Shown: positions 2,796 through 34,500 of the stretch, piece after piece
Position numbering within the stretch: the first letter of the stretch is position 1
Layout: every line of letters begins with the position of its first letter
Notes under the pieces: generated by a model
Told to the model about the DNA's origin: nothing
The model's database searches: none
The model's input: only the letters and a program-made list of their open reading frames with translations
NCBI GenBank assembly: GCA_049968235.1
Contig: JBMFRC010000027.1
Location: 1 to 40,034 of the forward strand
Direction of reading: 5' to 3'
Origin: Candidatus Hydrogenedens sp.
Lineage (GTDB): Bacteria > Hydrogenedentota > Hydrogenedentia > Hydrogenedentales > Hydrogenedentaceae
Length of the DNA: 40,034 nucleotides
Program-made: the position numbers and the translations under genes

Positions 2796-3043
2796 GTTTT
2801 TATTGTTTTTCAATTACTTCTTCAAATTTATCTTTAATCTATTCATATTTTTCAATAATATTTTGGTTTCTTTTAATTTATAGCAATGTTTTTTATGAAT
2901 ATAAAAACTTTTGTTTTAGTTTAACTAAAAAAGAGTATAGTACTTTCATGTAAAATATGTTATTAGCATTCAGATGTTTGATATAGTATTGAAGTAAGAT
3001 TTTATTGAATGTAATTTTTGTTTTAACAGAGGAAAGGGATACT

Positions 3044-16376: not shown

Positions 16377-16431
16377 TGCAATTAATTTATTTTTACAACA
16401 AGATAAACTTAAAGGACTTAGGATTCAATAG

Positions 16432-17472: not shown

Positions 17473-17493
17473 AAAGAGATTTGACATAGGGAA

Positions 17494-19347: not shown

Positions 19348-21279
19348 ATGAGATTGTATTATTATAAAAAATATATATTAGCACTCGTTTTTATATGCTT
19401 GCTCTGTAATGTTTCTGCAGAAGAGACAACGATAGAATCGCGAATAATTAATTTCCTTGATACACATGTACCACAATTATTAGACAAAAATCGTGTTTCA
19501 GGGGCAGTGATTGCCCTGGTGTGTGGGGATACAGTGGTTCTGAAAGGATATGGGATATTAGGTTTTGACCTTGACGAACCGATGGATGCAAAAAAAACGC
19601 CTGTCTTTGTTGCTTCATTGTCAAAACTTTTTACTGCAGTAGGGATTTTACAACTTTATGAGCAGGGAAAACTATCACTGGACATAGATGTCAATCACTA
19701 CCTGAACGATTTTCAAATTGTATACCCTTTTACAGAGCGGATTACCATTCATCATCTTCTTACACATACCGCTGGTTTTGATGACCGTTTTTTAGGTATG
19801 GGTGCGAAAACGAAAGATAGTGTTTTGCCTTTAGGAAAATATTTATCAAAAAGGTTGCCACCGATAGTATTTCCTCCCGGCAGTGCTATTAGTTATTCCA
19901 ATCATGGATTTGCCTTGTTAGGGCATATCATTGAAGAAGTTTCTGGAAAAAAGTTTTATGATTATATGAGAGAGCGCCTATTTGAGCCTCTTGAAATGAA
20001 GAATAGCCGATTTGATGGGACCTATCCTGAATATTTGAAACTTCCAGAACCGTATCTGGAATATCTGGGCAGAACCGAAAAGATTAGCATGGATTTTGCT
20101 CAGACGCCTCCGGCTTCCAGTCTTTGCACAACAGCGGAGGATTTCTCTCATTTTTTGATTGCTATGCTCAATGATGGAAGGTATAAAAATCATTCTTTAT
20201 TAAAACCTTCGACGGTTTTATTGATGCAAACGCCACGATACAAACTGCATCCCCTTCTCCCCGGTTATGCTTGTTGCTGGGAGGAAGGGTTTATTAATGG
20301 TAAGCGACTTTTACAGCATTCCGGTTTAACATGGGGGTTTAGTAGCCATACTTTGATTATTCCCGATGAGCGATTTGGACTGTTTATATCCATTAATAAA
20401 GGTGTGCATACCTTTATCAGTGAGTTAATTCATCTGCTTGTTGGAAAATTTTCTTTACCCGTAAAAAATATTGAAAATATCCGTAAACACCCATCATTTG
20501 TTGATGAGTCTTTTTACCAGCAAATCACAGGATTTTACCGGCATAACCGTTACTGTAGAAGTGATTATTTTAAGTTATCTACTTTTCTTCCGCAAATAAC
20601 CCATGAATATTACATCCGTGGAAATGCTTCTGAACACACTCTTTCTATGAAATATCTCGCCTTTCAATCGAGGGAATGGACAGTTGAGGAGATGGGGGAT
20701 ATGATATGGGGAAGAAAGAATAAAAATGGTGAAGTTGCAAGTTCTCCACGAATAAGTTTTATAAAGAGTTATCAGAAGAGACCTTATCAATTTACAATGG
20801 GTAATGATGTTTATGAACCGATTTACTTCTGGGAAACGAAACTTTTTCAATATGTTGTGTTTTTTGCATGTATGGCGGTTTGTTTGTTGAATTTGTGGAT
20901 AGTTGTTTTTCGTTTTTGGGTTATATGTATTGCTTTATGGGTAAGGAAAAGGTCTATTCGATTTAAAGTTAGTTGCTTTCAACTGTTAACTTTTTTATTC
21001 CTTATTTATACCTTCTGTTTTGGAGGATATATTTTTTTATTCTTAAAGCCACAAACATTAGGTTATGGGACACCCTCAGGACTTTTTATTCTTCTGATAA
21101 TTCCTTTCTTTTTATTACTACTGACAATTCTTGCGAGCATAAAGTTTCTTCTAACGCTAAAAGAGTGGAAAAGTCAGGTATTGTATGATTTGCTATCACT
21201 CCTTTCATGTTATGGGTTTCTGTTCCTTTTATATTACTGGAATATTTTAGATTTTCATTTAACGGGATGGTATGTATAA
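19348..21279 (+). CDS. Serine hydrolase of the beta-lactamase/PBP4-like fold with a C-terminal polytopic membrane domain
   Basis: Signal peptide. Active-site SxxK is ASLSKLF, the class-C YxN is ISYSNHGF, and an HTAGF motif is present. The last roughly 170 aa form 4-5 hydrophobic helices (FFACMAVCLLNLWIVVF..., LLTFLFLIYTFCFGGYIFLFL, GLFILLIIPFFLLLLTILA...). Confidence 0.75.
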   Translation: MRLYYYKKYILALVFICLLCNVSAEETTIESRIINFLDTHVPQLLDKNRVSGAVIALVCGDTVVLKGYGILGFDLDEPMDAKKTPVFVASLSKLFTAVGILQLYEQGKLSLDIDVNHYLNDFQIVYPFTERITIHHLLTHTAGFDDRFLGMGAKTKDSVLPLGKYLSKRLPPIVFPPGSAISYSNHGFALLGHIIEEVSGKKFYDYMRERLFEPLEMKNSRFDGTYPEYLKLPEPYLEYLGRTEKISMDFAQTPPASSLCTTAEDFSHFLIAMLNDGRYKNHSLLKPSTVLLMQTPRYKLHPLLPGYACCWEEGFINGKRLLQHSGLTWGFSSHTLIIPDERFGLFISINKGVHTFISELIHLLVGKFSLPVKNIENIRKHPSFVDESFYQQITGFYRHNRYCRSDYFKLSTFLPQITHEYYIRGNASEHTLSMKYLAFQSREWTVEEMGDMIWGRKNKNGEVASSPRISFIKSYQKRPYQFTMGNDVYEPIYFWETKLFQYVVFFACMAVCLLNLWIVVFRFWVICIALWVRKRSIRFKVSCFQLLTFLFLIYTFCFGGYIFLFLKPQTLGYGTPSGLFILLIIPFFLLLLTILASIKFLLTLKEWKSQVLYDLLSLLSCYGFLFLLYYWNILDFHLTGWYV

Positions 21280-21811: not shown

Positions 21812-24229
21812 TTATTTCGAAGAAAGTATTTTCCATTCAAGAATACCTGCAGAGAAGTTAGGTTGAAGTTGAACAACAAGACGCAAAGCATTCGTAGAAA
21901 TGGTATTAAAAGTAACTTCGTTGTATTTGTCTCGCTCTGTGTTTTTTTTCGATGGTTTTGGAACGGGTAACCAGTGGTCGTCTTTTTGATAAAGTATTTC
22001 CCATGATTCAGGAACTCTGCATTCTCCGAAACCTGTATCATCAAACCAGAAGACCTGTACCCCTTTAATGGGATATTCTTTGTCAAAAGTGTATTGTACC
22101 CATTCTTTTGTTCCTTTGTGGTCCCACCATGTAAAACGAGGGATGTTCGTGTCGGATGATTTTTTCGGCTCTATCTGGTCGTTGAGAGCATAGAGACTGT
22201 CATTTGTCCAGATATGGGATGCATCCACACGGGCTTGTGTTTCTATGGTGGGGACGGTTACAAGGTCTGCATTTTCCGGCAACCATACACGCATAAATCC
22301 CTTTTTACGGTTTGCCCATGCGTAGTAAGGAATTAATTTCATGGGTTGGTCTATGCCGTTCGAATTTTCTAATGTTTTTAATTTTGCAGTGGTCTGTATT
22401 GTTATAACACCACCGAGCAAATCGGGTTCGAATTGGGACTGGAATGTAGAATTACGAGGGAGGAAAAGAAACCGCACCTGATTGGAATTATCCACATCTT
22501 CCGCACAAAAAACGATGGGACCTCTTTGAATAGCAACTTTACCGCGGTCGGCTTCTACTTTTTCATTCGCATAAACTCGCTGAACATCCATAGGTAAAGT
22601 AAGTGTGATTTCATTGCTCTGTTGCCACTCTCTCCGAATTTTTATGAACCCCTTTTCTAATGAGGTGATGGGGATACTTTCCCCATTTACTTTTATATGA
22701 ACCTTATCCAGTCCCGGACATTCGGGGTAATGATACAATCGTTCGATTGCTCCCTGTCCGCGATATGTCCAATCCGGGATTCGGATTGCAATGGTAAAAT
22801 TTTGTGGTTTGTCAGAATGGATTTGAATTTTGGTTTCGCCGTCCCAGGGATAATTCGTAGTTTGTTCTATCTGAATAAGATTTTTCTGTGAGGAATTGTT
22901 CGTTTTTACAAGAGTCAATTTTCCCTCGTCCCATGTGAGTTGTGTTTTTGTAGGGATATAGTGAAGGATGTAAAGGGTATCTTTCTCACAAGCATAGGTA
23001 TAACCCCCTATGGTGGGGATAAAACGAACTACATTGGTTGGACAGCAGGCACATTTTTGCCATGGGGGTCGTTGTTCCACACCTTCCAATCGATTACAAT
23101 AGAAAATGGTATCTGCGGTAAGGGAAAGACCGGACAGCGGGGTATTATAGAAAGCACGTTCTATAATATCCACATATTGAGCATCTTGATGTAGAAGGAA
23201 CATGCGTTGTGCCCAGAGGACCAATCCGATGGAAGCACATGTTTCACAATAGGCAGTATCATTGGGTAGATAATAAGGGTGGCTAAAACCTTCCAGACGC
23301 AGTAGAGAATCGCCAATGCCAGCGGTGATATACATTTTTCGCTCTGTCAGGTCATACCACAATCGGTCGAGAGCATTCGAATAACGAGTATCACCGGTTT
23401 TTGCAACGAGGTCTGTAACGGATGAATAGAGATACATAGCCCGAACTGCATGCCCTAAAATTTCATCCTGTTCGATGATAGGTTTATGGTCCTGACAGGT
23501 AAAATCCCAGCGACCGGTAGACTTGCCTTTATAAGGTTTCCCGCGTTGTTCTATGAACCAGCGTGCCATCTCTGCATACTTATTTTCCCCTGTGTAATCA
23601 GCAAGTTTGAACAATGCCAGCTCGATTTCTTCATGTTGAGGCACTTCTTCTACTTTACCCGTTCCAAAAGTTTCTACAATATGGTCTGCAAATTTTGTAG
23701 CCACATCCAGTAGTTTTGTTTTCCCGGTTGCTTGAGCGTATGCAATACCGGCTTCAATAAGATGTCCCGCACAATAGGTTTCATGTTCCGCATCATTTGT
23801 CCAGCGTTCCTTAGGTTTGACAAGCGTAAAATAAGTGTTCAGATAGCCATCCGGTTGTTGGGCTTTTGCAATCAAATCAATAATTTCATCTGCAGTTTTT
23901 TCAATATTCGGGTCTTTATGTAGAGCGAGCCAATATGCAGTTCCTTCGAGAACTTTATATACATCCGAATCCTCAAAACATGCTCCAATATGCTTCCCCT
24001 CTTTCACCCCTGCTGTTACACGGAAATTATCTATCTTCTTCTCTGTTTCGCAATATTCAAAATTATGAGGTAAAAACTTTTTGCCGACCCGCATAATCCA
24101 TTCGTCCCAGAAGCCCGGTTTAACTTCTACTTCGGTGAAGGGAACAGGAAACACGGGATAAATATTGGGCAATGTTGTAACGGTGTTAATCAAATATAGG
24201 GGACTAAGGCTTACGAGTAAAAGGGTCAT
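21812..24229 (-). CDS. GH127-family glycoside hydrolase (beta-L-arabinofuranosidase-like, DUF1680) with a C-terminal beta-sandwich domain
   Basis: Signal peptide. The GH127 catalytic/zinc-site motifs are CETCASIGL (Glu/Cys) and KCACCPTNVVRF (Cys-Cys-Pro), as in HypBA1. It is about 800 aa with an extra C-terminal domain. Confidence 0.75.
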   Translation of the reverse strand: MTLLLVSLSPLYLINTVTTLPNIYPVFPVPFTEVEVKPGFWDEWIMRVGKKFLPHNFEYCETEKKIDNFRVTAGVKEGKHIGACFEDSDVYKVLEGTAYWLALHKDPNIEKTADEIIDLIAKAQQPDGYLNTYFTLVKPKERWTNDAEHETYCAGHLIEAGIAYAQATGKTKLLDVATKFADHIVETFGTGKVEEVPQHEEIELALFKLADYTGENKYAEMARWFIEQRGKPYKGKSTGRWDFTCQDHKPIIEQDEILGHAVRAMYLYSSVTDLVAKTGDTRYSNALDRLWYDLTERKMYITAGIGDSLLRLEGFSHPYYLPNDTAYCETCASIGLVLWAQRMFLLHQDAQYVDIIERAFYNTPLSGLSLTADTIFYCNRLEGVEQRPPWQKCACCPTNVVRFIPTIGGYTYACEKDTLYILHYIPTKTQLTWDEGKLTLVKTNNSSQKNLIQIEQTTNYPWDGETKIQIHSDKPQNFTIAIRIPDWTYRGQGAIERLYHYPECPGLDKVHIKVNGESIPITSLEKGFIKIRREWQQSNEITLTLPMDVQRVYANEKVEADRGKVAIQRGPIVFCAEDVDNSNQVRFLFLPRNSTFQSQFEPDLLGGVITIQTTAKLKTLENSNGIDQPMKLIPYYAWANRKKGFMRVWLPENADLVTVPTIETQARVDASHIWTNDSLYALNDQIEPKKSSDTNIPRFTWWDHKGTKEWVQYTFDKEYPIKGVQVFWFDDTGFGECRVPESWEILYQKDDHWLPVPKPSKKNTERDKYNEVTFNTISTNALRLVVQLQPNFSAGILEWKILSSK

Positions 24230-24357
24230 GGTTGGTCTCCTTTTCAGAATTTTTCATTTACAACAAATTATAATTTGAGTCTTTTTTCAGTAAATTGTAT
24301 ACTACTAAAACGATTTATCAAATAACAATCTTATTGTTGGAGAATAAAAATATACAT

Positions 24358-25740
24358 ATGATAATTTCAGCGGAGAAAAAGAAATTAAGTGGTTGGGGAA
24401 GGTATTCTTCCCTTGAAAGTTATGTGTTCCGCCCTGAGAAATGGAAGACTTTAGATGCGGTATTGAAAGATGACCGTGTTCCCGATTTTCTTGCAAGGGG
24501 TTTGGGACGGAGTTATGGAGATACTGCCCTGAATGAAGGAGGGGCTTTGATCAATATGCTGAGATTAAACCGATTCCTTAACTGGAATGAAGAAGATGGG
24601 GTACTGGAATGTGAAGGAGGGGTTACATTAAAAGAAATTCTGGATGTCTTTTTGCCTCGAGGCTGGATGCCGTATGTGTGTCCGGGAACAAAATTTGTTA
24701 CGGTTGGAGGCGCTATTGCGAACGATATTCACGGGAAGAACCATCATGAAGAAGGGAGTTTTGGAAATCATGTTTTATCGTTTGATTTGATAGTAGGGGA
24801 CGGAAACGTTGTTTGTTGTAGTCGCGATGAGAATTCGGATTTGTTTTGGGCAACCATCGGTGGGATTGGAATGACAGGGATAATCCGAACAGCAAAGATT
24901 CGGCTGAAGAAAGTAAAAACCGCCTATTTCCATGTAGATTACTATCAAGCAAAAAATTTAGATGATTTACTTGAAAAGATGAAGGACTATGATGTCAAAT
25001 ATCCTTATACTGTAGCGTGGTTAGATTGCCTTGCCCAGAAAGAGAGTATGGGCAGAGGTGTGTTGATGGGAGGACGCATGGCAGAAGTAGAGGATTTGCC
25101 TCCTCGCTGGAAAAATGCCCCTTTGACACCAAAGAAAAAAAGAGATATAACCGTTCCGTTTGATGCTCCATCATGGGCTTTAAGTCAACGAACAGTGGGT
25201 ATTTTCAATTCGTGGTATTATGATTTGAACAAATCCGGATATGAAATTGTACCGTTGGAAAAGTTCTTTTTCCCATTAGACCGTGTTTTAGAATGGAACA
25301 GAATGTATGGGAAGACAGGATTTATACAATATCAGGTGGTTTTTCCGGGAAATGAAGTAAAAGGATTAAAAATATTATTAGAACAGTTAGTTTCTTCTCA
25401 ACGAGCGTCTTTCTTAACTGTTTTGAAACGGTTTGGTTCTGGAAATGAAGGGTTATTGTCATTTCCCAGAGAGGGATATACATTGGCGTTAGATATACCC
25501 AATCATGCGGGTCTGATAAATTTTGTGGAGGATTTGAATTTGATTGTCTTGAGATATGGAGGGAGGCTTTACCTTGCCAAAGACCAACTGATGTCAGAGA
25601 GTATGTTCCGGGAGACCTATCCCCACTGGATACAATTTCAGGAGATAAAGATGAAGTATGACCCTGGTATTCGTTTTTCATCGACAATGGCACGACGAAT
25701 AGGACTTATTCCGGAACGGAGGAGGGCTCCTATATGTTAA
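24358..25740 (+). CDS. dprE1: DprE1-like FAD-dependent decaprenylphosphoryl-beta-D-ribofuranose 2'-oxidase
   Basis: The likely start is ATG 24358 after GGAGA; the track ORF begins at 24295. LSGWGRY and ARGLGRSYGD match M. tuberculosis DprE1 (LTGWGRT, ARGLGRSYGD). An FAD-binding PCMH-type region (VTVGGAIANDIHGKNHH) and an ALO-like C-terminal domain are present. Confidence 0.8.
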   Translation: MIISAEKKKLSGWGRYSSLESYVFRPEKWKTLDAVLKDDRVPDFLARGLGRSYGDTALNEGGALINMLRLNRFLNWNEEDGVLECEGGVTLKEILDVFLPRGWMPYVCPGTKFVTVGGAIANDIHGKNHHEEGSFGNHVLSFDLIVGDGNVVCCSRDENSDLFWATIGGIGMTGIIRTAKIRLKKVKTAYFHVDYYQAKNLDDLLEKMKDYDVKYPYTVAWLDCLAQKESMGRGVLMGGRMAEVEDLPPRWKNAPLTPKKKRDITVPFDAPSWALSQRTVGIFNSWYYDLNKSGYEIVPLEKFFFPLDRVLEWNRMYGKTGFIQYQVVFPGNEVKGLKILLEQLVSSQRASFLTVLKRFGSGNEGLLSFPREGYTLALDIPNHAGLINFVEDLNLIVLRYGGRLYLAKDQLMSESMFRETYPHWIQFQEIKMKYDPGIRFSSTMARRIGLIPERRRAPIC

Positions 25741-26507
25741 ATTCAAATGAAATGAAACCGACATCGAAATCGGTACTTGTTTTAGGTAGTGTTTCCGCTG
25801 TAGGAAAAGCCATAGCACATGAGTTTGCAAAAGAAGGTTATTCGTTATTGCTGGCTGATATAGAAACAGAAGAAAATGAACGAATTGCAAAAGATATTCA
25901 AATCCGCTACCGGGTTTATTGCGATACTTTATATTTTGATGCAGGCGATATAGATTCTCATTCCGCTTTTTGGGACAGGGTTGTTAATAAGATAAATGGC
26001 TTGCCCGAAGGTCTGGTAATTTGTTTCGGATATATGCCGGTGCAGGAAGAAGCACAAAAAGATTTTAATCTTATCAAAAGGTCTATAGACATTAATTTTA
26101 CAGGTGTGGTATCTATTCTGGAACGGGTTATTGGTAGGTTTGAAGAAAGAAAACATGGTTTTGCCATAGTAATTTCCTCTGTCGCCGGTGATAGAGGTCG
26201 TAAGAGTAATTATATTTACGGCTCTACCAAGGGGGCATTAACACGATATGTGGAAGGATTGCAACATCGGTTAAGTTCCGCGAAAGTGCATATATTGCTT
26301 GTAAAACCGGGTTTTATGGACACCGCCATGACCTATGGGTTAAATTTACCTCAAAAACTTTTGGCAAGTCCCGAAGAAGCGGGGCGTATTATTCACAAAG
26401 CATGGAAACGAAAGAAACATGTTGTTTATGTTAAATGGTTCTGGCGATACATTATGCTTATTATTCAACATTTGCCCCGATTTGTATTTCATCGTACCCA
26501 ATTATAA
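25734..26507 (+). CDS. dprE2: DprE2-like short-chain dehydrogenase (decaprenylphospho-2'-keto-ribose reductase)
   Basis: Overlaps the dprE1 stop by 7 bp. VLVLGSVSAVG (Rossmann), VISSVAGDRGRKSNYIYGSTKGAL (Mtb DprE2: [24 protein letters not shown]) and the C-terminal WFWRYIMLIIQHLPRFVFHR (Mtb: AFRYVMMVLRHIPRSIFRK) all match. Confidence 0.8.
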   Translation: MLNSNEMKPTSKSVLVLGSVSAVGKAIAHEFAKEGYSLLLADIETEENERIAKDIQIRYRVYCDTLYFDAGDIDSHSAFWDRVVNKINGLPEGLVICFGYMPVQEEAQKDFNLIKRSIDINFTGVVSILERVIGRFEERKHGFAIVISSVAGDRGRKSNYIYGSTKGALTRYVEGLQHRLSSAKVHILLVKPGFMDTAMTYGLNLPQKLLASPEEAGRIIHKAWKRKKHVVYVKWFWRYIMLIIQHLPRFVFHRTQL

Positions 26508-26525
26508 TGGGGATGAAGGATACGC

Positions 26526-27428
26526 ATGAAAATTCTTGTCTCACTTATAAAAACATTGAGGGTATATCAATGGACAAAAAATTTATTAGTATTTGCTGCG
26601 ATTATCTTTGCAGGCGAATTACTGAACTTAACGGCTATTAAACTTTCAATAATCGCCTTTTTTTCTTTTTGTTTTTCGGCAAGTTCCGCTTATATCCTGA
26701 ATGATGTTATTGATGTGGAAAAGGACCGACTTCATCCGGAGAAATCACGACGACCCATTCCCAGTGGAGATGTAAGTATCCCGATGGCGTTTTTCCTTAC
26801 TTTTACCTTAATAATACTCTCTCTATCATTAGGTTATACATTGGGCATAAAATTTATCGCAATCCTTCTGGTGTATGTTTTTCTAACGGTCAGTTATTCG
26901 TTGTTGTGGAAAAAGTTTTTTCTGGTGGACGTATTAATTTTGGCGATGGGTTTTGTAACGAGGGCTATAGCAGGTGCGGTGGCAATAAATGTGGTGTTTT
27001 CAAACTGGTTAATTGTATGCACCTTATTTTTAGCGTTATTTTTAGGACTGGGAAAAAGAAGGGGCGAATTGCTTCTATTAAAAGACGATGCAGAAAATCA
27101 TCGATCCGTCCTTGTATTTTATACGGTTGAATATTTAGACCAATTACTCCTTATTGTATCCAGCGGTGCTTTAATTACTTTTACAATTTACACATGTTCG
27201 CCAGAGGTAATTGCTCGCTTGCATACCGATAAATTATATATGAGTTTGCCCTTTGTAATTTATGGTTTGTTTCGCTATCTTTATTTAGTTCGGTATCAAG
27301 GGGAAGGTTCAGACCCCAGCAAGGTGTTACTATCTGATAAGCCTATTATACTCTGCGTAATTTTATGGGCATTAACGAATGTTTGTATTATTTACGGAGA
27401 GCAGATTATTCATTTACTCTATACCTGA
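26526..27428 (+). CDS. UbiA-family polyprenyl-phosphate 5-phosphoribosyltransferase (Rv3806c/UbiA-like)
   Basis: A 300-aa polytopic membrane protein with the UbiA Asp-rich motif NDVIDVEKDRLH and a second Asp-rich region. The size and its position right after dprE1/dprE2 mirror mycobacterial decaprenyl-phosphate phosphoribosyltransferase. Confidence 0.7.
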   Translation: MKILVSLIKTLRVYQWTKNLLVFAAIIFAGELLNLTAIKLSIIAFFSFCFSASSAYILNDVIDVEKDRLHPEKSRRPIPSGDVSIPMAFFLTFTLIILSLSLGYTLGIKFIAILLVYVFLTVSYSLLWKKFFLVDVLILAMGFVTRAIAGAVAINVVFSNWLIVCTLFLALFLGLGKRRGELLLLKDDAENHRSVLVFYTVEYLDQLLLIVSSGALITFTIYTCSPEVIARLHTDKLYMSLPFVIYGLFRYLYLVRYQGEGSDPSKVLLSDKPIILCVILWALTNVCIIYGEQIIHLLYT

Positions 27429-27462
27429 AAAGTAGTATTCAAAATCACAGTAGGAGCAAACT

Positions 27463-28776
27463 ATGAGTTCTGTTCGAATCGATTTTCAGAGAATCAACAA
27501 AAAAGTTATGGCAGTTGTTTTGGGGGGTGGTAGAGGCACAAGGTTATATCCATTAACGAAACTTCGGTCCAAGCCTGCAGTCCCTTTATGTGGGAGATAT
27601 CGGCTCATCGATATACCGCTGAGTAATTGTATTAATTCCGGGTTCATGCGAATTGTTGTTTTAACTCAATTTAATAGTCATTCCTTAAACCGTCATATTA
27701 TGAATGCTTATCACTTTGATGAATTTCACAGTGGCGGTGTTACCATTCTTGCTGCGGAACAAACCAATGAGACAGGGGATTGGTTTCAGGGCACTGCGGA
27801 TGCGGTTCGAAAGCATATTACCCATATTTATGAACCGGATGTACAATATTATCTCATTCTTTCCGGTGATCAGTTATATCGTATGGATTATCGAGATTTA
27901 TTAAAAACACATATCTCTAAAAAAGCAGAAATAACGGTATCTGCGTTGCCTGTGGGACGCAGTTCTGCATCGCAGTTCGGTATTATGCAGGTAGATTCGG
28001 AAGGAGGTATACAACGATTTGTGGAAAAGCCCAAAGAGGATGAAGTATTAGAGCAATTAACTACTCCCCCATCCCTTTTTGAGGAATTTGGTATTTCTGC
28101 AGAAGGGAAACCTTACTTAGCATCCATGGGCGTTTATGTTTTTAATGCAGATGTGCTAATCCATTTGTTGAGAGAACATCTGGAGTGGATAGATTTTGGT
28201 AAGCAATTGATTCCCGGTGCATTAGCCCAACATAAAGTATATGCACATATGTTTGATGGGTTCTGGGAGGATATAGGAACGGTTCGTTCTTATTACGATG
28301 TAAGTATTGCTATGACTTATGACCATCCCCCTTTTGAATTTCACGACCCGGAACAACCGATATATACACATCGAAGAGCCTTACCCGGTGCTAAAATTAT
28401 TTGCTCCGAAATTGACCATGCGATTGTCTGCTCCGGTGTCCGCATAGAAACAGCACGAGTTTGTCATTCCATTATTGGGATTCGCAGTATGATTTGTGAA
28501 TCTACGGTGATTGACCATAGTATTATATGTGGTGCGGATTCGTTTGAGATGGGAGCTGTCCGGCATCCTTCGGGTATTCCTATGGGAATTGGTCCCGGAA
28601 CTGTAATAGAAAAAGCCATCATTGACCATAATGTTCGTATCGGGAGAAATGTGATTATTCGTGGCGGAGATGATTTGAAGGATGGAGACTACAAGGGTTA
28701 TTCCATTCGCGATGGTATTGTTGTTGTCCATAAAAATGCCATTATTCCTGATGAAACAAAAATAGGGAAAGTGTAA
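27463..28776 (+). CDS. glgC: Glucose-1-phosphate adenylyltransferase (GlgC)-family NDP-sugar pyrophosphorylase
   Basis: The N-terminus VLGGGRGTRLYPLTKLRSKPAVPLCGRYRLIDIPLSNCINSGF is near-identical to the GlgC signature (GG-GTRL...KPAV..GG.YR.ID..LSNC.NSG). It is full length, with a C-terminal left-handed beta-helix (hexapeptide repeats). Confidence 0.7.
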   Translation: MSSVRIDFQRINKKVMAVVLGGGRGTRLYPLTKLRSKPAVPLCGRYRLIDIPLSNCINSGFMRIVVLTQFNSHSLNRHIMNAYHFDEFHSGGVTILAAEQTNETGDWFQGTADAVRKHITHIYEPDVQYYLILSGDQLYRMDYRDLLKTHISKKAEITVSALPVGRSSASQFGIMQVDSEGGIQRFVEKPKEDEVLEQLTTPPSLFEEFGISAEGKPYLASMGVYVFNADVLIHLLREHLEWIDFGKQLIPGALAQHKVYAHMFDGFWEDIGTVRSYYDVSIAMTYDHPPFEFHDPEQPIYTHRRALPGAKIICSEIDHAIVCSGVRIETARVCHSIIGIRSMICESTVIDHSIICGADSFEMGAVRHPSGIPMGIGPGTVIEKAIIDHNVRIGRNVIIRGGDDLKDGDYKGYSIRDGIVVVHKNAIIPDETKIGKV

Positions 28777-30899
28777 TGGGTGATATACAAAATACTGATG
28801 AACAAAAAGGAACAATAAACTCCGCTTCGGGGGAATTTCATTGGTATGAAGGATTAGCGATTTGCCTTTCGATGATAGGTGTTCAGTTATGTAGCGAAGT
28901 GATTAACCAATGGGGTTTGTATTTTTATTCTCCCTCCGGAGGAGTTGGTCGAACGGTCTATGTTTCTATTGGACTTGTTGGATATATATTTATAATTGGA
29001 ACATTCTGGGATGCCTTCAGTAGTCCATTAGTAGGTGCCTTATCCGATAAAACTCCAACCAGACCGGGACGATGGCGGATTATCCCTATTTATGGTCGTA
29101 GAAGACCCTATATTTTTTTAGGTGCGTTATTTATGGTTTTTACTATGATTGGTTTTTGGTTTCCACCGACAGGACATACTTCTTTTTTGAATTTTATTTA
29201 CGGGACTATTCTGTTATGTACTCATTGGACATTATTTTCAGTCGCTGTAATACCGTTAAACGCCTTAGGACCTGAAATAGCCCGTTCTGAATCAGCACGA
29301 GTTGCCCTGGGAACATGGACAGCCATTGGAATGATTATCGGATTGGCAATGGCGAACGCTTTACCGGGGATATTGATTTCAAAATTGGACCCGGCACGAG
29401 TGGAGAACCATTTGAAAATTGTTCTTGATGAAGATAAAACTTCGGATATATCTCGTGAAAAGATTGAAACCTGGTTGCAGACGTGGAAATTAACATCGGA
29501 TAAAATGGAAGGAATCGTTGAAGGAAAACAAAAGTCAACATTTAACATTCAAAATAATCTGTTCGATGAATTGCAGGAGAAAAGTATTACAAAAACCACA
29601 GATACTATTTTCCGTAAATTAGGTATTGACAAATATAAACAATTGCCTCGAAAAGCATTCAGGGCATTACAGGTGTCAACAAATTTAACCACACAGGAAT
29701 TATCAGAAAGGTTACGGAAAGAAGTTTATGAGTATTTAAAGATATGGGGTTCTAAGTGTATAAATGTACAAAAAGAAAATTCGGGTAATAAGATATACTT
29801 ACATTCGAAACTTTTGGAGGGTATAGAAACAAAGGACTTTATGGGAGAAGAATTTAAAGATAAGGATTTTTCCTTACAGGGGGAAACTTTGTCCATTATT
29901 TCGTCAGAACCTTTATCCGAAGAGGAAATAAACAGGATTCGGGAAACTGTTCTTTCTGCTGTGTTGAAAAAGCATCTTATTGTCTCTTCTTCGGGAGAGA
30001 ACCAGAATGTTGTGGTTATTTATTCCAGAGCATTAACCCAGTCGCTTGCCTTAGCAGGAATTCAGAGTTCGCTTCCCGGTACTCCTATCGTAGATATAAA
30101 TTGGGTGGCAGAAAGTTTTTCTCCTACGGGCTATCGCAGGGTCGCAACAGTATTTGCACTCATTTCATTTGTGCTGTTTTTATTACCGGTAATTTTTATC
30201 CGGGAGCGGTATAATTCAGAAGCGGTACAAAGCGAACCATTGCCATGGGGACAGGGACTAAAAGATGCATTGCGAAACAAGCCGTTTATGATTTATGCCT
30301 GGTCGTTCTTCCTGTTTACTATTGGATTTTTGGCTGTTCAGCGTGTTCTACCGTATTGGGCGGAGTTAGGGCTGGATGGAGATGAAAGCACGATTACCTT
30401 CTTATTGATACCGTTCATACTGGTAGCCATAATATCTTATGCAGTGATACCCATTGTAGCAAAGTATTTACATATGAAATGGCTTATGTTTATTGCGTTA
30501 GGAATTATCGCTTCAGGGATGCCATTTTTGTATATGATTGGAAAATGGAATGTAGATTTTACTGTGCGAACAATTATGGGTATGGTTTTATTCGGTTATT
30601 GTGGTATAGGACAAGCCATAATTTATGTGATGATGATACCTATGCTGGGGGATATTATTGATTATGATGAAAAATTTTCCGGAGAGCGTCGTGAAGCAGT
30701 TTATAACGGTCTTAGTGCTTTTATCTGGAAAGCCTCCATGGCAGGTTCTATCTGGTTGGCTTCACAATCGATGAGTTTATGGGGCAATTCCGTTGAACGC
30801 TATACAGGTGTATTGCTCGTTGGACCCTTTGCGGGGATTTTTGGATTGTTAGGGATGATTTTGATTTCTTTTTATCCATCTCATTGGAGAGAGGGATAA
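28776..30899 (+). CDS. GPH-family (glycoside-pentoside-hexuronide:cation symporter-like) MFS membrane protein with a ~230-aa inserted soluble domain
   Basis: The start overlaps the GlgC stop (TAATG). The GPH signature is DAFSSPLVGALSDKT...GRRRPYI. Five N-terminal TM helices are followed by a long hydrophilic insertion (about residues 200-430), then about 7 more TM helices. Confidence 0.6.
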   Translation: MGDIQNTDEQKGTINSASGEFHWYEGLAICLSMIGVQLCSEVINQWGLYFYSPSGGVGRTVYVSIGLVGYIFIIGTFWDAFSSPLVGALSDKTPTRPGRWRIIPIYGRRRPYIFLGALFMVFTMIGFWFPPTGHTSFLNFIYGTILLCTHWTLFSVAVIPLNALGPEIARSESARVALGTWTAIGMIIGLAMANALPGILISKLDPARVENHLKIVLDEDKTSDISREKIETWLQTWKLTSDKMEGIVEGKQKSTFNIQNNLFDELQEKSITKTTDTIFRKLGIDKYKQLPRKAFRALQVSTNLTTQELSERLRKEVYEYLKIWGSKCINVQKENSGNKIYLHSKLLEGIETKDFMGEEFKDKDFSLQGETLSIISSEPLSEEEINRIRETVLSAVLKKHLIVSSSGENQNVVVIYSRALTQSLALAGIQSSLPGTPIVDINWVAESFSPTGYRRVATVFALISFVLFLLPVIFIRERYNSEAVQSEPLPWGQGLKDALRNKPFMIYAWSFFLFTIGFLAVQRVLPYWAELGLDGDESTITFLLIPFILVAIISYAVIPIVAKYLHMKWLMFIALGIIASGMPFLYMIGKWNVDFTVRTIMGMVLFGYCGIGQAIIYVMMIPMLGDIIDYDEKFSGERREAVYNGLSAFIWKASMAGSIWLASQSMSLWGNSVERYTGVLLVGPFAGIFGLLGMILISFYPSHWREG

Positions 30900-30937
30900 T
30901 GGTTGTTCTTTCAGATGGGTCAGACGAGGTAGACAGG

Positions 30938-32170
30938 TCAGACAGTCCTTCTCAGTTTTGAGAAAACACTTAAATATTTTTTTGCATTTTCTCTCCGTGT
31001 AAAATGAGCAAGGACATATTCCCTTCCCTTTTTCCCAAAGTTCTTTCGCAATTCTGGGTTTTGAATCATTTTGATTAAGCCCGAAGTATATTCCTCTACA
31101 TTTTCCGGTTCAACAGTAATTCCTGCATTGGCTTCTTCTAAAATGTCACGGGCTTGACCTTCCGCCCCCAGTAGAATGGGACGTTCACAAGCCATAATCT
31201 CAAACATTTTAGAGGGGATATTATAACGAAAAACATCACGTTTTTTTAAGGGAACAAGGCATATATCTGCAGAAGAATACCAGTCAGGCATAACCTGTTT
31301 TTTTACAGGCGGATAAAACTCGATATTGGTTAGTTCTTTCTCTTGTGCAATCGCAATTAGTCGTTCGCGGTCTGCCCCAGCACCGACAAAGACAAAAAGG
31401 ATATTAGGGTTATCTTTGAAATTTTCTGCTACCTGTAAGATTGTTTCTAACCCCTGAGAAAGACCCATAGTCCCGATATATAACACCACAATTTTAGAAG
31501 AGTCCCAATTCTTTTCCTGACGAATTTTTTCCCCACCCGGGCTCGGTTTAAAAAAATCCTCGTTTATTCCATTGGGAATGGTGAAAATTTTATTTCCATC
31601 AAAGCCGCGTCTTTCAATTTCATGAGACATAGCAGGGGCTATTGTAACAATTGCTTTTGCTCGATGGTAAAGAAAAGATTCTAAGGAAGAAAGCAAATAG
31701 ATAATAAAGCGATTTTTTATTACACCCAAATCAATAATCTGGGCAGGCCAGAGGTCGCGTATTTCGAGGACAAACGGTCTCCATTTAAACAGAGAAACGA
31801 TATATCCTGCCAGACCACATAACATTTGAGGAGAAGTGGCTACAACTACATCACATTTCTGGGTAAAGAAAATAGCAACCAGAATAGAAGAAATCATATA
31901 AGTGAGAAAGGCAAAACTTCGTTTCAATACACCGCGGTTCGGTGTCGCATAAAGCCATCCGCGGAGTACACGAATCCCATCCCAATTTTCACGAACAAGC
32001 CACCTGCCCCGATATCCGGGGGGAATAACGCCATCGGGATGATTGGGCAGTCCACATACCACTGTAACCTCATGCCCTTCTTGAACCCAATATTTAGCAT
32101 GCTCATAAGTTCGGGCAGACGGAGCCCCCATTTCAGGGGGGAAATATTGACACAAAAAGAGAATCTTCAT
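30938..32170 (-). CDS. GT4-family glycosyltransferase (WcaI/WbuB-like)
   Basis: The N-terminal KILFLCQYFPPEMGAPSARTYEHAKYW...GHEVTVV is typical of GT4 GT-B enzymes. C-terminal EX7E-like region (EIMACERPIL...). Convergent with the preceding operon. Confidence 0.8.
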   Translation of the reverse strand: MKILFLCQYFPPEMGAPSARTYEHAKYWVQEGHEVTVVCGLPNHPDGVIPPGYRGRWLVRENWDGIRVLRGWLYATPNRGVLKRSFAFLTYMISSILVAIFFTQKCDVVVATSPQMLCGLAGYIVSLFKWRPFVLEIRDLWPAQIIDLGVIKNRFIIYLLSSLESFLYHRAKAIVTIAPAMSHEIERRGFDGNKIFTIPNGINEDFFKPSPGGEKIRQEKNWDSSKIVVLYIGTMGLSQGLETILQVAENFKDNPNILFVFVGAGADRERLIAIAQEKELTNIEFYPPVKKQVMPDWYSSADICLVPLKKRDVFRYNIPSKMFEIMACERPILLGAEGQARDILEEANAGITVEPENVEEYTSGLIKMIQNPELRKNFGKKGREYVLAHFTRRENAKKYLSVFSKLRRTV

Positions 32171-34070: not shown

Positions 34071-34472
34071 ATGGCACACAACTCAGGTTTCACTCTCATA
34101 GAACTTATTCTGGTAACGATTATCATCGGTATTCTTGCGGGTATGGTGGTGATGAATTATGGAGGTAGAGTGCGTGAAACACAAATTCGAGCTGCAAAAG
34201 GCGATATAGCAACTTATTGTAATGCTGTAGACTTGTATGCATTAGACCATAATGATAAATATCCTGCCAGTTTAGAAGATTTAGTCAGCGGTGAGCGTCG
34301 TTATGTTCGTGAAGTCCGTCCTGACCCATGGGGCAATCCATATATTTATAAACCAGCTACTGACCCATTAAAAGCAGATTATCAAATTTTTTCGGCCGGA
34401 CCGGATGGTGTTCCCGGAAATGAAGATGATGTTACATCTTCATCAAAGACAGAACTTACATCGAAAAAATAA
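34071..34472 (+). CDS. gspG: Type II secretion major pseudopilin GspG
   Basis: Prepilin leader plus GFTLIELILVTIIIGILAGM (cleavage/methylation motif). The GspG-specific PDPWGNPYIY motif is present. 133 aa. Confidence 0.85.
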   Translation: MAHNSGFTLIELILVTIIIGILAGMVVMNYGGRVRETQIRAAKGDIATYCNAVDLYALDHNDKYPASLEDLVSGERRYVREVRPDPWGNPYIYKPATDPLKADYQIFSAGPDGVPGNEDDVTSSSKTELTSKK

Positions 34473-34500
34473 CTATATCAAGAATTAAGATACGAACAGG

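What the first reader, a model, noticed from the sequence alone, without database searches (positions are those of the whole stretch)
24358..30899. Complete DprE1-DprE2-UbiA (DPA-type) polyprenyl-phospho-pentose operon in a non-mycobacterial genome, fused to a GlgC-like enzyme and an unusual transporter
Three consecutive, translationally coupled genes encode close homologues of the mycobacterial decaprenyl-phospho-D-arabinofuranose pathway. The first, an FAD oxidase, carries GWGR and ARGLGRSYGD motifs identical to DprE1. The second, an SDR, has DprE2-specific blocks (SSxAGxRxRxxNxxYGSTK and the C-terminal FRYxM...HxPR). The third is a UbiA prenyl-phosphate phosphoribosyltransferase with NDxxDxxxD. 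In Mycobacterium these three make the lipid-linked arabinose donor for arabinogalactan and LAM. Here they sit in one operon with a GlgC-family nucleotidyltransferase and a GPH/MFS protein: the 7-bp dprE1/dprE2 overlap, the 18-bp and 34-bp gaps, and the TAATG overlap link them. This composition is not the mycobacterial one; there is no Rv3807c-type phosphatase and no GT-C arabinosyltransferase in the window. The operon predicts a lipid-linked epimerised pentose (Araf-like) donor used for an unknown glycoconjugate in this organism.
Basis: partly seen in the sequence, partly recalled or inferred. Interest (0 to 1): 0.8.

Follow-up and report, generated by a model that had tools for sequence, protein, structure and literature searches.

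The report
Lipid-linked arabinose operon with odd transporter
An uncultured Hydrogenedentota bacterium carries the three enzymes that make the membrane-lipid-linked arabinose donor known from tuberculosis bacteria, an already known and widespread pathway, but here they are locked in one operon with an ordinary glycogen-precursor enzyme and a lineage-specific lipid-transporter-like protein that may be a new kind of flippase.

Summary
Window 24358-30899 (+) holds five tightly coupled genes: a DprE1-like FAD oxidase, a DprE2-like SDR, a PRPP-dependent UbiA-type polyprenyl-phosphate phosphoribosyltransferase (PPPRS), GlgC and a 707-aa MFS_2 transporter. The first three have M. tuberculosis DprE1, DprE2 and Rv3806c as their best solved-structure matches, and catalytic and PRPP-binding residues are conserved. 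The benzothiazinone-target Cys387 is Ala.

This pathway outside mycobacteria is already known (P. aeruginosa pilin arabinosylation; the pentofuranose systems of Kelly et al. 2024), and DprE1 homologues are abundant across phyla. The triad alone is therefore a new member of a known kind.

Two things are new. UbiA-GlgC-MFS is a conserved cassette across deeply diverged Hydrogenedentota, and DprE1/DprE2 is present in only some of those lineages. The usual phosphatase, small flippase and GT-C are also missing.

GlgC looks like a canonical ADP-glucose pyrophosphorylase. The MFS family is small and folds most like the lysolipid flippase MFSD2A. Its paralogues sit in glycosphingolipid-catabolism-like operons. 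The window's copy also carries an orphan 240-aa periplasmic domain. I propose it flips the lipid-linked pentose; this is inferred, not shown. Why GlgC is locked in stays unexplained.

The parts
21812..24229 (-). GH127-family glycosidase (beta-L-arabinofuranosidase / aceric acid hydrolase family) with a C-terminal F5/8 type C domain. It is transcribed divergently from the operon. Its link to the operon is uncertain.
   Evidence: Pfam GH127 catalytic, middle and C-terminal domains. 488 bits to the Geobacillus GH127 structure 4qjy, with the CACCP and ETCAS motifs conserved. The divergent arrangement is conserved in L001, L002, L011, L012 and L013, but not in L045, L046 or L049.
24230..24357 (.). 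128-bp AT-rich divergent intergenic region; presumed promoter region for the operon and for GH127.
   Evidence: Sequence. Several sigma-70-like matches lie here, but the count for the scanned region is not above shuffles. No Rfam family matched.
24358..25740 (+). DprE1-like FAD-dependent polyprenyl-phospho-ribofuranose 2'-oxidase (460 aa).
   Evidence: NCBIfam NF053785 471 bits (cutoff 500; next family 58 bits). PDB DprE1 322 bits over residues 9-451, about 40% identity. Tyr60, His132, Lys134, Gln334/336 and Lys418 equivalents are conserved; Cys387 is Ala and Asn385 is Thr.
25734..26507 (+). DprE2-like SDR, the keto-pentose 2'-reductase (257 aa).
   Evidence: Best PDB match is DprE2 (21gq_C) at 90 bits; the next SDR scores 52 bits. 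The YxxxK motif and the C-terminal FRYxM..HxPR block are conserved. NCBIfam PRK07102 276 bits, above its cutoff of 267; DprE2 model 165 bits, below its cutoff of 250.
26526..27428 (+). UbiA-family polyprenyl-phosphate 5-phosphoribosyltransferase (PPPRS, Rv3806c type; 300 aa, 7 hydrophobic segments in a crude Kyte-Doolittle scan).
   Evidence: NF008977 268 bits, above its cutoff of 234. PDB 8j8j 106 bits. Equivalents of Rv3806c Arg22, Lys28, Tyr70, Asn73, Asp77, Lys87, Arg90, Tyr138 and Lys143 are conserved; Gln135 is Thr and Tyr157 is Phe (one search read against PMC10994848).
27463..28776 (+). GlgC, glucose-1-phosphate adenylyltransferase (437 aa), of the cyanobacterial/plant type.
   Evidence: NF002772 576 bits, above its cutoff of 537; TIGR02091 435 bits, above 425. 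388 bits to the potato small subunit 1yp2. The GGGxGTRL, GDxLYRMDY, EKPK and C-terminal Lys motifs are conserved.
28776..30899 (+). MFS_2 (GPH/MFSD2A-like) 12-TM transporter (707 aa); candidate flippase for the lipid-linked pentose.
   Evidence: Pfam MFS_2 134 bits. Only 79 homologues in 5.8 billion proteins. AF2 model pLDDT 88.8. The best Foldseek PDB matches are MFSD2A (E 4e-12, TMt 0.79), ahead of MelB. GlgC and/or UbiA lie immediately upstream in about 35 of about 68 species-level loci.
29388..30110 (+). Insert of about 240 aa (residues ~205-445) in the loop between TM5 and TM6 of the MFS. It is a predicted periplasmic alpha/beta domain with no relatives outside this family.
30938..32170 (-). 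GT4 (WcaI-like) glycosyltransferase, convergent with the operon. Possibly associated, with weak evidence.
   Evidence: Pfam and NCBIfam hits. Syntenic only in the closest relatives, L011 and L012.

Best explanation
This is a five-gene operon of a Candidatus Hydrogenedentota bacterium.

Genes 1-3 supply a polyprenyl-phosphate-linked D-arabinofuranose donor:
1. The UbiA-type PPPRS transfers 5-phosphoribose from PRPP to a polyprenyl phosphate. The family and the PRPP residues are shown.
2. An unlinked phosphatase removes the 5'-phosphate. This is inferred; no candidate lies in the window.
3. The DprE1-like flavoenzyme oxidises C2'.
4. The DprE2-like SDR reduces the ketone to give the arabino epimer. 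This is inferred from family membership and conserved residues.

Gene 4 is an ordinary ADP-glucose pyrophosphorylase.

Gene 5 is a lineage-restricted, MFSD2A-like MFS transporter with an orphan periplasmic domain. I propose that it flips the lipid-linked pentose to the periplasmic face, the role held by GtrA/SMR or MATE proteins in known systems. An unlinked GT-C transferase would then add Araf to an unknown envelope glycan. The flippase step is inference only.

DprE1/DprE2 behave as an optional add-on to an older UbiA-GlgC-MFS cassette. The reason GlgC is kept inside that cassette is not explained.

My sub-confidences: about 0.85 that the triad makes lipid-P-Araf, 0.9 for the enzymatic identity of GlgC, and 0.35-0.4 that the MFS is a flippase.
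For: Identity of the triad:
- NCBIfam and PDB best hits are DprE1, DprE2 and Rv3806c, with catalytic and PRPP-binding residues conserved.
- The 5'-phosphate-binding residues Lys28, Tyr70 and Tyr157(Phe) distinguish phosphoribosyltransferases from prenyltransferases according to PMC10994848, and they are present.

Operon:
- Start/stop overlaps and gaps of 18-34 bp.
- The same five-gene order occurs in six other species-level loci in three deep branches of the MFS tree, including L045, L046 and L049 at only 45-48% DprE1 identity. The flanks annotated in L045 and L046 are unrelated.

Framework: Kelly et al. 2024 show PPPRS + flippase + GT-C systems, with DprE1/E2 as auxiliary epimerases for Araf.

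MFS as a lipid transporter:
- Its fold is closest to the lysolipid flippase MFSD2A.
- Paralogues sit in operons with GH30, neutral ceramidase, AAT/acid-ceramidase-like and PIG-L genes.
- It lies directly downstream of UbiA, or of UbiA-GlgC, in 21 species-level loci.
- No GtrA/SMR/MATE gene is in the operon. In contrast, Kyrpidia has a small EamA/SMR-like protein next to DprE1/E2, and both the Kyrpidia and the Phycisphaerales loci have a multi-TM candidate GT-C alongside.

GlgC as canonical.
Against: - No phosphatase and no GT-C lie in the window or next to the operon in any relative, so the use of the product is unverified.
- The tightest linkage of the MFS is to GlgC, not to UbiA. There are 14 GlgC-MFS loci with no UbiA adjacent (two of them cut too short upstream to tell, one with UbiA about 1 kb further up), often with translational coupling. 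A pentose flippase role does not explain this.
- The MFS belongs to the glycoside-pentoside-hexuronide superfamily, so a soluble glycoside substrate is equally compatible with its sequence.
- The DprE1 and DprE2 scores fall below NCBIfam's equivalog cutoffs (471 below 500; 165 below 250).
- No polyprenyl-phosphate-sugar flippase of the MFS type turned up in the one literature search I ran.
Confidence: 0.5

Rival explanations
1. Mosaic operon. The MFS is a glycoside (furanoside or oligosaccharide) importer of the GPH type that works with cytoplasmic glycosidases such as the adjacent GH127, and it feeds carbon to glycogen through GlgC. The DprE1-DprE2-UbiA module is only co-transcribed with this uptake-and-storage module, and the lipid-linked pentose is flipped by an unlinked protein.
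For: - GlgC-MFS is the most frequent and tightest pair, and it occurs without UbiA.
- DprE1-DprE2-UbiA occurs alone in another Hydrogenedentes MAG (L091).
- Furanosidase genes lie divergently upstream in two lineages: GH127 in the window clade, and GH172/DUF2961 in L062 and, by clustering with it, L048.
- The MFS matches Pfam MFS_2 and TIGR00792 (gph).
- Archaeal and planctomycete homologues sit next to PIG-L deacetylases and GH30.
Against: - UbiA-MFS adjacency persists across deep branches and also occurs without GlgC (L029, L038).
- The fold is closer to MFSD2A than to MelB.
- The genes upstream of the cassette are otherwise heterogeneous: SpoIIE, ThrRS, penicillin amidase and others. The glycosidase link is therefore weak.
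- The periplasmic domain has no counterpart among the PDB transporters most similar in fold (MFSD2A, MelB; 450-475 aa).
Confidence: 0.3
2. Integrated pathway that needs ADP-glucose. The cassette builds or exports a glucose-containing envelope product (an alpha-glucan, glucolipid or glucoside made from ADP-glucose) that is then decorated with, or primed by, lipid-linked ribo- or arabinofuranose. GlgC, PPPRS and the MFS would then act in a single pathway.
For: - The strict order UbiA-GlgC-MFS, with translational coupling of glgC and the MFS gene, holds in many lineages down to about 45-50% MFS identity.
- NUDIX or NUDIX-MBL genes, of a family that includes ADP-sugar pyrophosphatases (my knowledge, not tested here), follow the MFS in L004 and L006.
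Against: - No glycosyltransferase that would use ADP-glucose is conserved in the cassette.
- GlgC shows no divergence from canonical ADP-Glc pyrophosphorylases, which fits a housekeeping gene.
- No such pathway is known to me.
Confidence: 0.12
3. The three enzymes are DprE1/DprE2/PPPRS-family members but act on a different lipid-linked sugar or give a product other than Araf. For example, they might stop at the 2'-keto intermediate or yield another epimer.
For: - DprE1 and DprE2 score below NCBIfam's equivalog cutoffs.
- Two active-site-region residues differ: Cys387 is Ala and Asn385 is Thr in DprE1, and Gln135 is Thr in the PPPRS.
- Kelly et al. show that epimerase choice sets the pentose.
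Against: - Full-length collinear alignments to the M. tuberculosis enzymes, with catalytic Lys418, His132 and the YxxxK motif intact.
- From my knowledge, not tested here: Cys387 is dispensable for catalysis, and natural Ala/Ser variants exist in mycobacteria.
- In all known cases where DprE1/E2 homologues accompany a PPPRS, the glycan contains D-Araf (PMC11127046).
Confidence: 0.06

Closest known systems
Mycobacterial decaprenyl-phospho-D-arabinofuranose (DPA) pathway: Rv3806c, Rv3807c, DprE1 (Rv3790), DprE2 (Rv3791), Rv3789, Emb/Aft GT-C enzymes
   Same: The same three enzyme families: PPPRS at about 29% identity, DprE1 at about 40% and DprE2 at about 27.5%, with catalytic and PRPP-binding residues conserved. 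dprE1 and dprE2 are adjacent and overlap.
   Different: - No PAP2 phosphatase, no GtrA/SMR-type Rv3789 and no GT-C nearby.
- Cys387 is Ala.
- The carrier lipid is unknown.
- The genes are coupled to glgC and an MFS_2 gene.
- By phylum, the organism is presumably a diderm with no arabinogalactan.
Three-component extracytoplasmic pentofuranose glycosylation systems (Kelly et al. 2024, C. youngae O1/O2 ORF15/14/12; P. aeruginosa group IV pilin D-Araf system with TfpW)
   Same: A PRPP-dependent PPPRS makes the lipid-linked donor. DprE1/E2 act as auxiliary, dispensable epimerases that set the pentose. The modular gain and loss of epimerases seen here (cassettes with and without DprE1/E2) matches that concept.
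   Different: - The PPPRS is not fused to a HAD phosphatase; the Phycisphaerales locus L003 does have that fusion.
- No MATE or SMR flippase, and no GT136 or other GT-C, lies in the locus.
- An MFS_2 protein and GlgC occupy those positions instead.
MFS lipid transporters MFSD2A (lysophosphatidylcholine), LplT and LtaA
   Same: The best structural matches of the MFS model are MFSD2A structures (E 4e-12, TM-score 0.79 on the target). It belongs to the same MFS_2/GPH-like superfamily. Paralogues lie in lipid-catabolism-like operons.
   Different: - Only 12-15% sequence identity.
- A 240-aa periplasmic domain is inserted between TM5 and TM6.
- The proposed substrate, polyprenyl-P-pentose, has no precedent for this family.
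GlgC (ADP-glucose pyrophosphorylase) of cyanobacteria and plants
   Same: Scores above NCBIfam's equivalog cutoffs. About 50% identical to the potato small subunit. The catalytic Asp motif, the G1P-binding Lys and one C-terminal regulatory Lys are conserved.
   Different: - It is embedded between a PPPRS gene and an MFS gene, not in a glg operon.
- One of the two 3-PGA-site lysines (potato Lys404 equivalent) is His. The mapping is read from the alignment; the role of that residue is from my own knowledge.

Membership tests
DprE1 (decaprenylphosphoryl-beta-D-ribose 2'-oxidase) | Full-length match to the DprE1 equivalog model above the curated cutoff | tested here: not met
   NF053785 scores 471.4 bits against a cutoff of 500, aligned 8-451 of 461. 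The score is just short of the cutoff. The next family scores only 58 bits, so the protein belongs to the DprE1 clade but not to the actinobacterial equivalog set.
DprE1 (decaprenylphosphoryl-beta-D-ribose 2'-oxidase) | FAD-binding PCMH domain and the catalytic/substrate residues (Mtb Tyr60, His132, Lys134, Gln334/336, Lys418) | tested here: met
   Pfam FAD_binding_4 scores 70 bits. All listed residues are conserved in the alignment to Mtb DprE1. The residue roles are from my own knowledge of the DprE1 structures.
DprE1 (decaprenylphosphoryl-beta-D-ribose 2'-oxidase) | Cys387, the site of covalent benzothiazinone inhibition (not required for catalysis) | tested here: not met
   Mtb ...GWNICVDFP... 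aligns with ...GYTLALDIP..., so Cys is replaced by Ala.
DprE2 (keto-pentose 2'-reductase, SDR) | Match to the DprE2 equivalog model above cutoff | tested here: not met
   NF053786 scores 165 bits against a cutoff of 250. The best model is PRK07102 'SDR family oxidoreductase' at 276 bits, above its cutoff of 267.
DprE2 (keto-pentose 2'-reductase, SDR) | SDR Rossmann motif, Ser/YxxxK catalytic residues and the DprE2-type C-terminal FRYxM...HxPR segment; best solved relative is DprE2; gene directly follows dprE1 | tested here: met
   Alignment to 21gq_C scores 90 bits against 52 for the next SDR, and the motifs are conserved. The gene overlaps dprE1 by 7 bp.
PPPRS / DPPRS (Rv3806c-type UbiA phosphoribosyltransferase) | Equivalog model above cutoff, plus the PRPP pyrophosphate-binding and 5'-phosphate-binding residues that set it apart from prenyltransferases | tested here: met
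   NF008977 scores 268 bits, above its cutoff of 234. Arg22, Lys28, Tyr70, Asn73, Asp77, Lys87, Arg90, Tyr138 and Lys143 are conserved, and Tyr157 is Phe as in some mycobacteria (with PMC10994848).
Complete DPA pathway / three-component pentofuranose system | 5'-phosphatase (PAP2 Rv3807c type, or HAD PRP domain) | tested here: not met
   No PAP2 or HAD hit among the 25 window ORFs scanned against Pfam (seven ORFs at 10223-10975 and 34501-39758 were not scanned), and none among the flanking genes annotated in the related loci. The rest of the genome could not be searched.
Complete DPA pathway / three-component pentofuranose system | Dedicated small flippase (GtrA/SMR) or MATE flippase | tested here: not met
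   None in the operon. The only transporter is the MFS_2 protein.
Complete DPA pathway / three-component pentofuranose system | GT-C glycosyltransferase that uses the lipid-linked pentose | tested here: not met
   No protein in the window other than UbiA and the MFS has 8 or more TM segments, and none was found next to the operon in the relatives whose flanks were annotated. Whether one lies elsewhere in the genome cannot be tested with these tools.
Complete DPA pathway / three-component pentofuranose system | Product is polyprenyl-phospho-D-arabinofuranose | not testable with these tools
   Needs biochemistry: PRPP labelling, and LC-MS/NMR of lipid extracts.
GlgC (glucose-1-phosphate adenylyltransferase) | Equivalog models above cutoff; catalytic Asp and the G1P-binding Lys | tested here: met
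   NF002772 scores 575.6 bits (cutoff 537) and TIGR02091 scores 434.9 (cutoff 424.9). The GDQLYRMDY and EKPK motifs align to potato Asp145 and Lys198 (residue roles are from my own knowledge).
GPH (glycoside-pentoside-hexuronide:cation symporter) family | Match to the TIGR00792 gph model above cutoff | tested here: not met
   111.7 bits against a cutoff of 231. The Pfam MFS_2 superfamily-level model is met: 134 bits against a cutoff of 27.
MFS lipid flippases (MFSD2A-like) | Transport or flipping of an amphipathic lipid | not testable with these tools
   There is only structural similarity and the genomic context of paralogues.

The most novel reading that the evidence does not exclude
UbiA-GlgC-MFS_2 is a previously unrecognised, Hydrogenedentota-wide envelope-glycosylation cassette. 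In it, an MFSD2A-like MFS transporter, in one clade equipped with an orphan periplasmic docking domain, is a new class of flippase for polyprenyl-phospho-pentofuranoses. ADP-glucose synthesis is mechanistically tied to the same pathway, for example through a surface glucan or glucolipid decorated with Ribf or Araf. DprE1/DprE2 act as a swappable epimerase module.
Probability: 0.2. Interest if true: 0.7.

Novelty: new variant of a known kind. Interest (0 to 1): 0.45.

Why it matters
The enzymes that make lipid-linked D-arabinofuranose are major tuberculosis drug targets. How the lipid-linked donor crosses the membrane is still unsettled, even in M. tuberculosis (Rv3789) and in the Gram-negative systems (PMC11127046).

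A conserved genetic coupling of the PPPRS to an MFSD2A-like transporter gives a concrete and testable flippase candidate of a new type. It also extends the 'swappable epimerase' logic of pentofuranose glycosylation to an uncultured phylum.

The unexplained locking of a canonical glgC between the two genes is a small but real puzzle about how storage-glucan and envelope-glycan precursor supply are coordinated.

If the MFS turns out to be a plain sugar importer, the locus is just one more member of a known pathway.

Tried and rejected
1. Riboswitch or other RNA in the 5' region: no Rfam match and no tRNA anywhere in the window.

2. The MFS insert as the missing phosphatase or another enzyme: rejected.
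- No Pfam hit.
- By topology the insert is periplasmic.
- It has no relatives outside this MFS family.

3. GlgC as a neofunctionalised nucleotidyltransferase: not supported. It passes the equivalog cutoffs and keeps the catalytic and G1P residues.

4. Pseudopilins as Araf acceptors, by analogy with P. aeruginosa: the pseudopilin cluster at 34-39.7 kb is not syntenic with the operon in any relative.

5. GH127 as an obligatory partner: it is conserved only in the window's own clade. Other lineages have GH172, a GalE-like SDR, GH3-LysM, SpoIIE, ThrRS and others upstream.

6. The ArnC-like GT2 / HisG-like cluster at 15.8-18.2 kb as part of the system: no synteny in relatives. I left it as a side note.

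7. Whether this glgC is the only copy in the genome could not be determined.

8. My crude ORF caller mis-called genes in the high-GC loci by picking antisense shadow ORFs. The context counts therefore rest on tblastn, not.

Full report
**1. What is there**

The window has about 39% G+C. Its DprE1-like protein has its closest relatives (93%, 85% and 82% identity) in metagenomic proteins; the 82% hit and several lower ones are named Candidatus Hydrogenedens or Hydrogenedentes.

On the + strand, 24358-30899 holds five ORFs:
- a 460-aa FAD oxidase
- a 257-aa SDR
- a 300-aa UbiA protein with seven predicted TM segments
- a 437-aa nucleotidyltransferase
- a 707-aa MFS protein

Promoter-like and terminator-like sites across the scanned 24100-31100 are not above shuffle expectation.

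**2. Identity of the first three genes**

*DprE1-like protein*
- The NCBIfam DprE1 model scores 471 bits, just under the 500-bit equivalog cutoff. The next family scores 58 bits.
- Its best solved relatives are all DprE1 (322 bits, E 7e-95, residues 9-451, about 40% identity). Cytokinin dehydrogenases follow at 57 bits.
- In that alignment the FAD and substrate residues I checked are conserved: Tyr60 in GLGRSYGD, His132 and Lys134 in DIHGKNHH, Gln334/336 in QYQ, and Lys418 in LYxAKD.
- The benzothiazinone-target Cys387 is Ala and Asn385 is Thr.

*DprE2-like protein*
- The SDR's best solved relative is DprE2 (90 bits against 52 for the next SDR, about 27.5% identity).
- The YxxxK motif and the C-terminal FRYxM..HxPR segment are conserved.
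- In NCBIfam it passes PRK07102 (276 bits against a cutoff of 267) but not the DprE2 equivalog model (165 against 250).

*UbiA protein*
- It passes a decaprenyl-phosphate phosphoribosyltransferase model (NF008977, 268 bits against a cutoff of 234), and its best solved relative is Rv3806c.
- I read the alignment against the Rv3806c structure paper (PMC10994848). The pyrophosphate-binding residues (Arg22, Lys87, Arg90, Lys143, Tyr138), the Mg/ribose residues (Asn73, Asp77) and the 5'-phosphate residues (Lys28, Tyr70) are conserved. Tyr157 is Phe, as in some mycobacteria. Only Gln135 differs (Thr).
- That paper states that the phosphoribose-binding residues are not shared with prenyltransferase UbiA enzymes, so this is a PRPP-dependent PPPRS.

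**3. Genes four and five**

*GlgC.* The nucleotidyltransferase is not merely GlgC-like.
- It passes two GlgC equivalog models: NF002772 at 576 bits (cutoff 537) and TIGR02091 at 435 (cutoff 425).
- It scores 388 bits against the potato small subunit.
- The catalytic and glucose-1-phosphate motifs are intact.

*The MFS.*
- It matches Pfam MFS_2 but falls below the gph model cutoff.
- The family is small: 79 hits among 5.8 billion proteins, almost all from Hydrogenedentota and Planctomycetota.
- About 30 members carry an insert of about 240 aa; the others are 460-550 aa.

An AlphaFold model built from 72 family members is confident (pLDDT 88.8). It shows 12 TM helices with the insert between TM5 and TM6. 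Given the cytoplasmic GRRRP motif between TM2 and TM3, that loop is periplasmic.

For the whole model, the best PDB matches are the lysolipid flippase MFSD2A (E 4e-12, TM-score 0.79). MelB follows at about 1e-6.

**4. Surroundings**

- A GH127-family glycosidase with a C-terminal F5/8 type C domain is transcribed divergently (21812-24229). It scores 488 bits to Geobacillus GH127, and the CACCP and ETCAS motifs are conserved.
- A WcaI-like GT4 is convergent downstream.
- No HAD or PAP2 phosphatase family was hit among the 25 window ORFs scanned against Pfam; seven ORFs (10223-10975 and 34501-39758) were not scanned.
- No protein other than UbiA and the MFS has 8 or more hydrophobic segments, so there is no GT-C candidate.
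- No Rfam family or tRNA is present.

**5. Comparative evidence**

*Conservation of the block.* The five-gene block plus the divergent GH127 is conserved in other Hydrogenedentota MAGs at 66-67% DprE1 identity, with different outer flanks.

*Architectures.* I scanned one genome per species for the MFS family and ran tblastn with the window proteins. The species-level loci fall into these classes:

| Architecture | Loci |
|---|---|
| DprE1-DprE2-UbiA-GlgC-MFS | 6, plus the window |
| UbiA-GlgC-MFS | 13 |
| GlgC-MFS | 14 |
| UbiA-MFS | 2 |
| MFS alone | about 33 |

A few of the shorter classes sit on contigs cut close upstream, so their architecture is a minimum.

*Flanks.* Of the full five-gene operons at only 45-48% DprE1 identity (L045, L046, L049), the flanks annotated in L045 and L046 are unrelated to the window's: SpoIIE phosphatase, Mla, ThrRS, T2SS-F and ThuA. 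The block is therefore a self-contained unit.

*Age of the association.* In a neighbour-joining tree of the MFS family, the GlgC-linked and UbiA-linked members are spread over several deep branches. The association is old and has been maintained.

*Modularity.* DprE1-DprE2-UbiA also occurs alone in another Hydrogenedentes MAG (L091). The picture is modular: an old UbiA-GlgC-MFS cassette, with DprE1/DprE2 as an optional add-on.

*MFS paralogues.* The MFS-alone paralogues often lie in operons with GH30, neutral ceramidase, an AAT/acid-ceramidase-like protein, PIG-L and Fe-ADH_2. That is a glycosphingolipid-catabolism-like context.

*Other phyla.* There the locus has the expected composition:
- A Phycisphaerales locus has a 9-TM protein, a HAD-UbiA fusion, DprE1 and DprE2.
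- A Kyrpidia locus has Wzy, Wzz, a multi-TM protein, DprE1, DprE2 and a small EamA/SMR-like protein.

**6. Mechanism**

Shown by sequence: a PRPP-dependent PPPRS, a DprE1-type flavoenzyme, a DprE2-type reductase, a canonical GlgC and an MFS.

Inferred from the established pathway (Mikusova/Wolucka scheme as summarised in PMC11127046 and PMC10994848):
1. Polyprenyl-P + PRPP gives polyprenyl-P-ribose-5-P.
2. Dephosphorylation by an unlinked enzyme.
3. 2'-oxidation.
4. 2'-reduction to polyprenyl-P-D-Araf.

This fits the framework of Kelly et al. 2024: PPPRS + flippase + GT-C, with DprE1/E2 as auxiliary epimerases that set the pentose. The cassettes here with and without DprE1/E2 mirror that logic.

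I propose that the MFS takes the flippase slot, for four reasons:
- It is the only transporter in the operon.
- It is persistently adjacent to the PPPRS.
- Its fold is closest to a lipid-flipping MFS.
- Its paralogues sit with lipid-catabolic enzymes.

This step is inference, at roughly 35-40%.

The main rival, at about 30%, is that the MFS is a glycoside importer functionally paired with GlgC and nearby glycosidases, and that the operon is a mosaic. In favour of the rival:
- GlgC-MFS is the tightest pair and occurs without UbiA.
- Furanosidase genes (GH127 here; GH172 in L062 and, by clustering, L048) sit divergently upstream in two lineages.

Against it:
- Upstream genes are otherwise heterogeneous.
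- UbiA-MFS adjacency also occurs without GlgC.

No explanation I could test accounts for a canonical glgC being held between the PPPRS and MFS genes. I record this as unexplained.

**7. Comparison with what is known, and novelty**

The DPA-type triad outside mycobacteria is known. Examples are P. aeruginosa pilin D-Araf (bioRxiv 10.1101/2020.04.19.049825) and the Gram-negative O-antigen systems (PMC11127046). On that count this is a new member of a known kind.

Four things are new:
- the conserved UbiA-GlgC-MFS_2 cassette
- the absence of the usual phosphatase, small flippase and GT-C
- the MFSD2A-like transporter family itself
- its orphan periplasmic domain

Overall I rate it a new variant of a known kind, with interest about 0.45. 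It is not low either, because the cassette offers a testable new flippase candidate and a genuine puzzle.

Noticed in passing
window 21812-24229 (-): A GH127-family glycosidase with a C-terminal F5/8 type C domain and no obvious signal peptide sits divergently from the operon. It scores 488 bits to Geobacillus beta-L-arabinofuranosidase and 398 bits to the aceric acid hydrolase model, and the CACCP and ETCAS motifs are intact. It is syntenic with the operon only in the window's own clade.
   Followed up: partly
L062 5535-7586 (-), and L048 5558-7609 (-) by clustering; L001 2639-4198 and L002 2966-4516: GH172/DUF2961 genes recur next to the cassette. This family includes exo-alpha-D-arabinofuranosidases. 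They lie directly divergent from UbiA-GlgC-MFS in L062 (and L048, same cluster), which lack DprE1/E2, and about 5 kb upstream in L001 and L002. They could trim the organism's own furanoside glycan, or the proximity could be coincidence.
   Followed up: partly
L050 6320-7351 (-), L073 1442-2383 (-): A GalE-like NAD-dependent epimerase/dehydratase lies divergently upstream of UbiA-GlgC-MFS cassettes that lack DprE1/E2. This recalls the SDR epimerase ORF13, which converts undP-Ribf to undP-Xylf in C. youngae O2.
   Followed up: no
L010 4650-11434; also L008, L027, L032, L035, L053: Paralogues of the MFS that lack the insert sit in operons with GH30, neutral ceramidase, an AAT/acid-ceramidase-like protein, PIG-L deacetylase and Fe-ADH_2. 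This looks like a glycosphingolipid or glycolipid catabolic locus in Hydrogenedentota and Planctomycetota.
   Followed up: partly
L004 11382-11918; L006 12162-13661: A NUDIX hydrolase (L004) or a NUDIX-metallo-beta-lactamase fusion (L006) follows the MFS gene in some GlgC-MFS cassettes. It may be an ADP-sugar pyrophosphatase linked to GlgC.
   Followed up: no
window 15822-18225 (+): A three-gene cluster: a 184-aa membrane protein with no family, a 346-aa protein with weak HisG (ATP phosphoribosyltransferase) similarity, and a 243-aa ArnC-like GT2 (polyprenyl-phosphate sugar synthase type) that lacks the C-terminal TM region. It is not syntenic with the operon in relatives.
   Followed up: partly
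window 18244-19260 (-): A sulfotransferase with partial similarity to the nodulation protein NoeE (96 bits), which hints at sulfated glycans.
   Followed up: no
window 34071-39758 (+): A type II secretion / pseudopilin-like cluster: GspG-like, with at least one prepilin N-methylation motif. I checked it as a possible Araf acceptor by analogy with P. aeruginosa pilins. It is not syntenic with the operon in any relative.
   Followed up: yes
window 19348-21279 (+): A serine beta-lactamase-fold protein of 643 aa. A crude hydropathy scan gives two N-terminal and four C-terminal hydrophobic segments, an unusual architecture.
   Followed up: no
L014, L030, L032, L035, L038, L050 and others: Contigs carrying the Hydrogenedentota-type MFS family, some with the cassette (L014, L038, L050), are labelled Nitrospirales, Nitrospiraceae or Bathyarchaeia in their MAG records. 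This is probably mis-binning or mis-classification.
   Followed up: no
window 3005-4489 (+), 10223-10975 (+): Predicted secreted proteins of 494 and 250 aa with an N-terminal hydrophobic segment. Neither has an NCBIfam match, and the 494-aa one has no Pfam match either.
   Followed up: no
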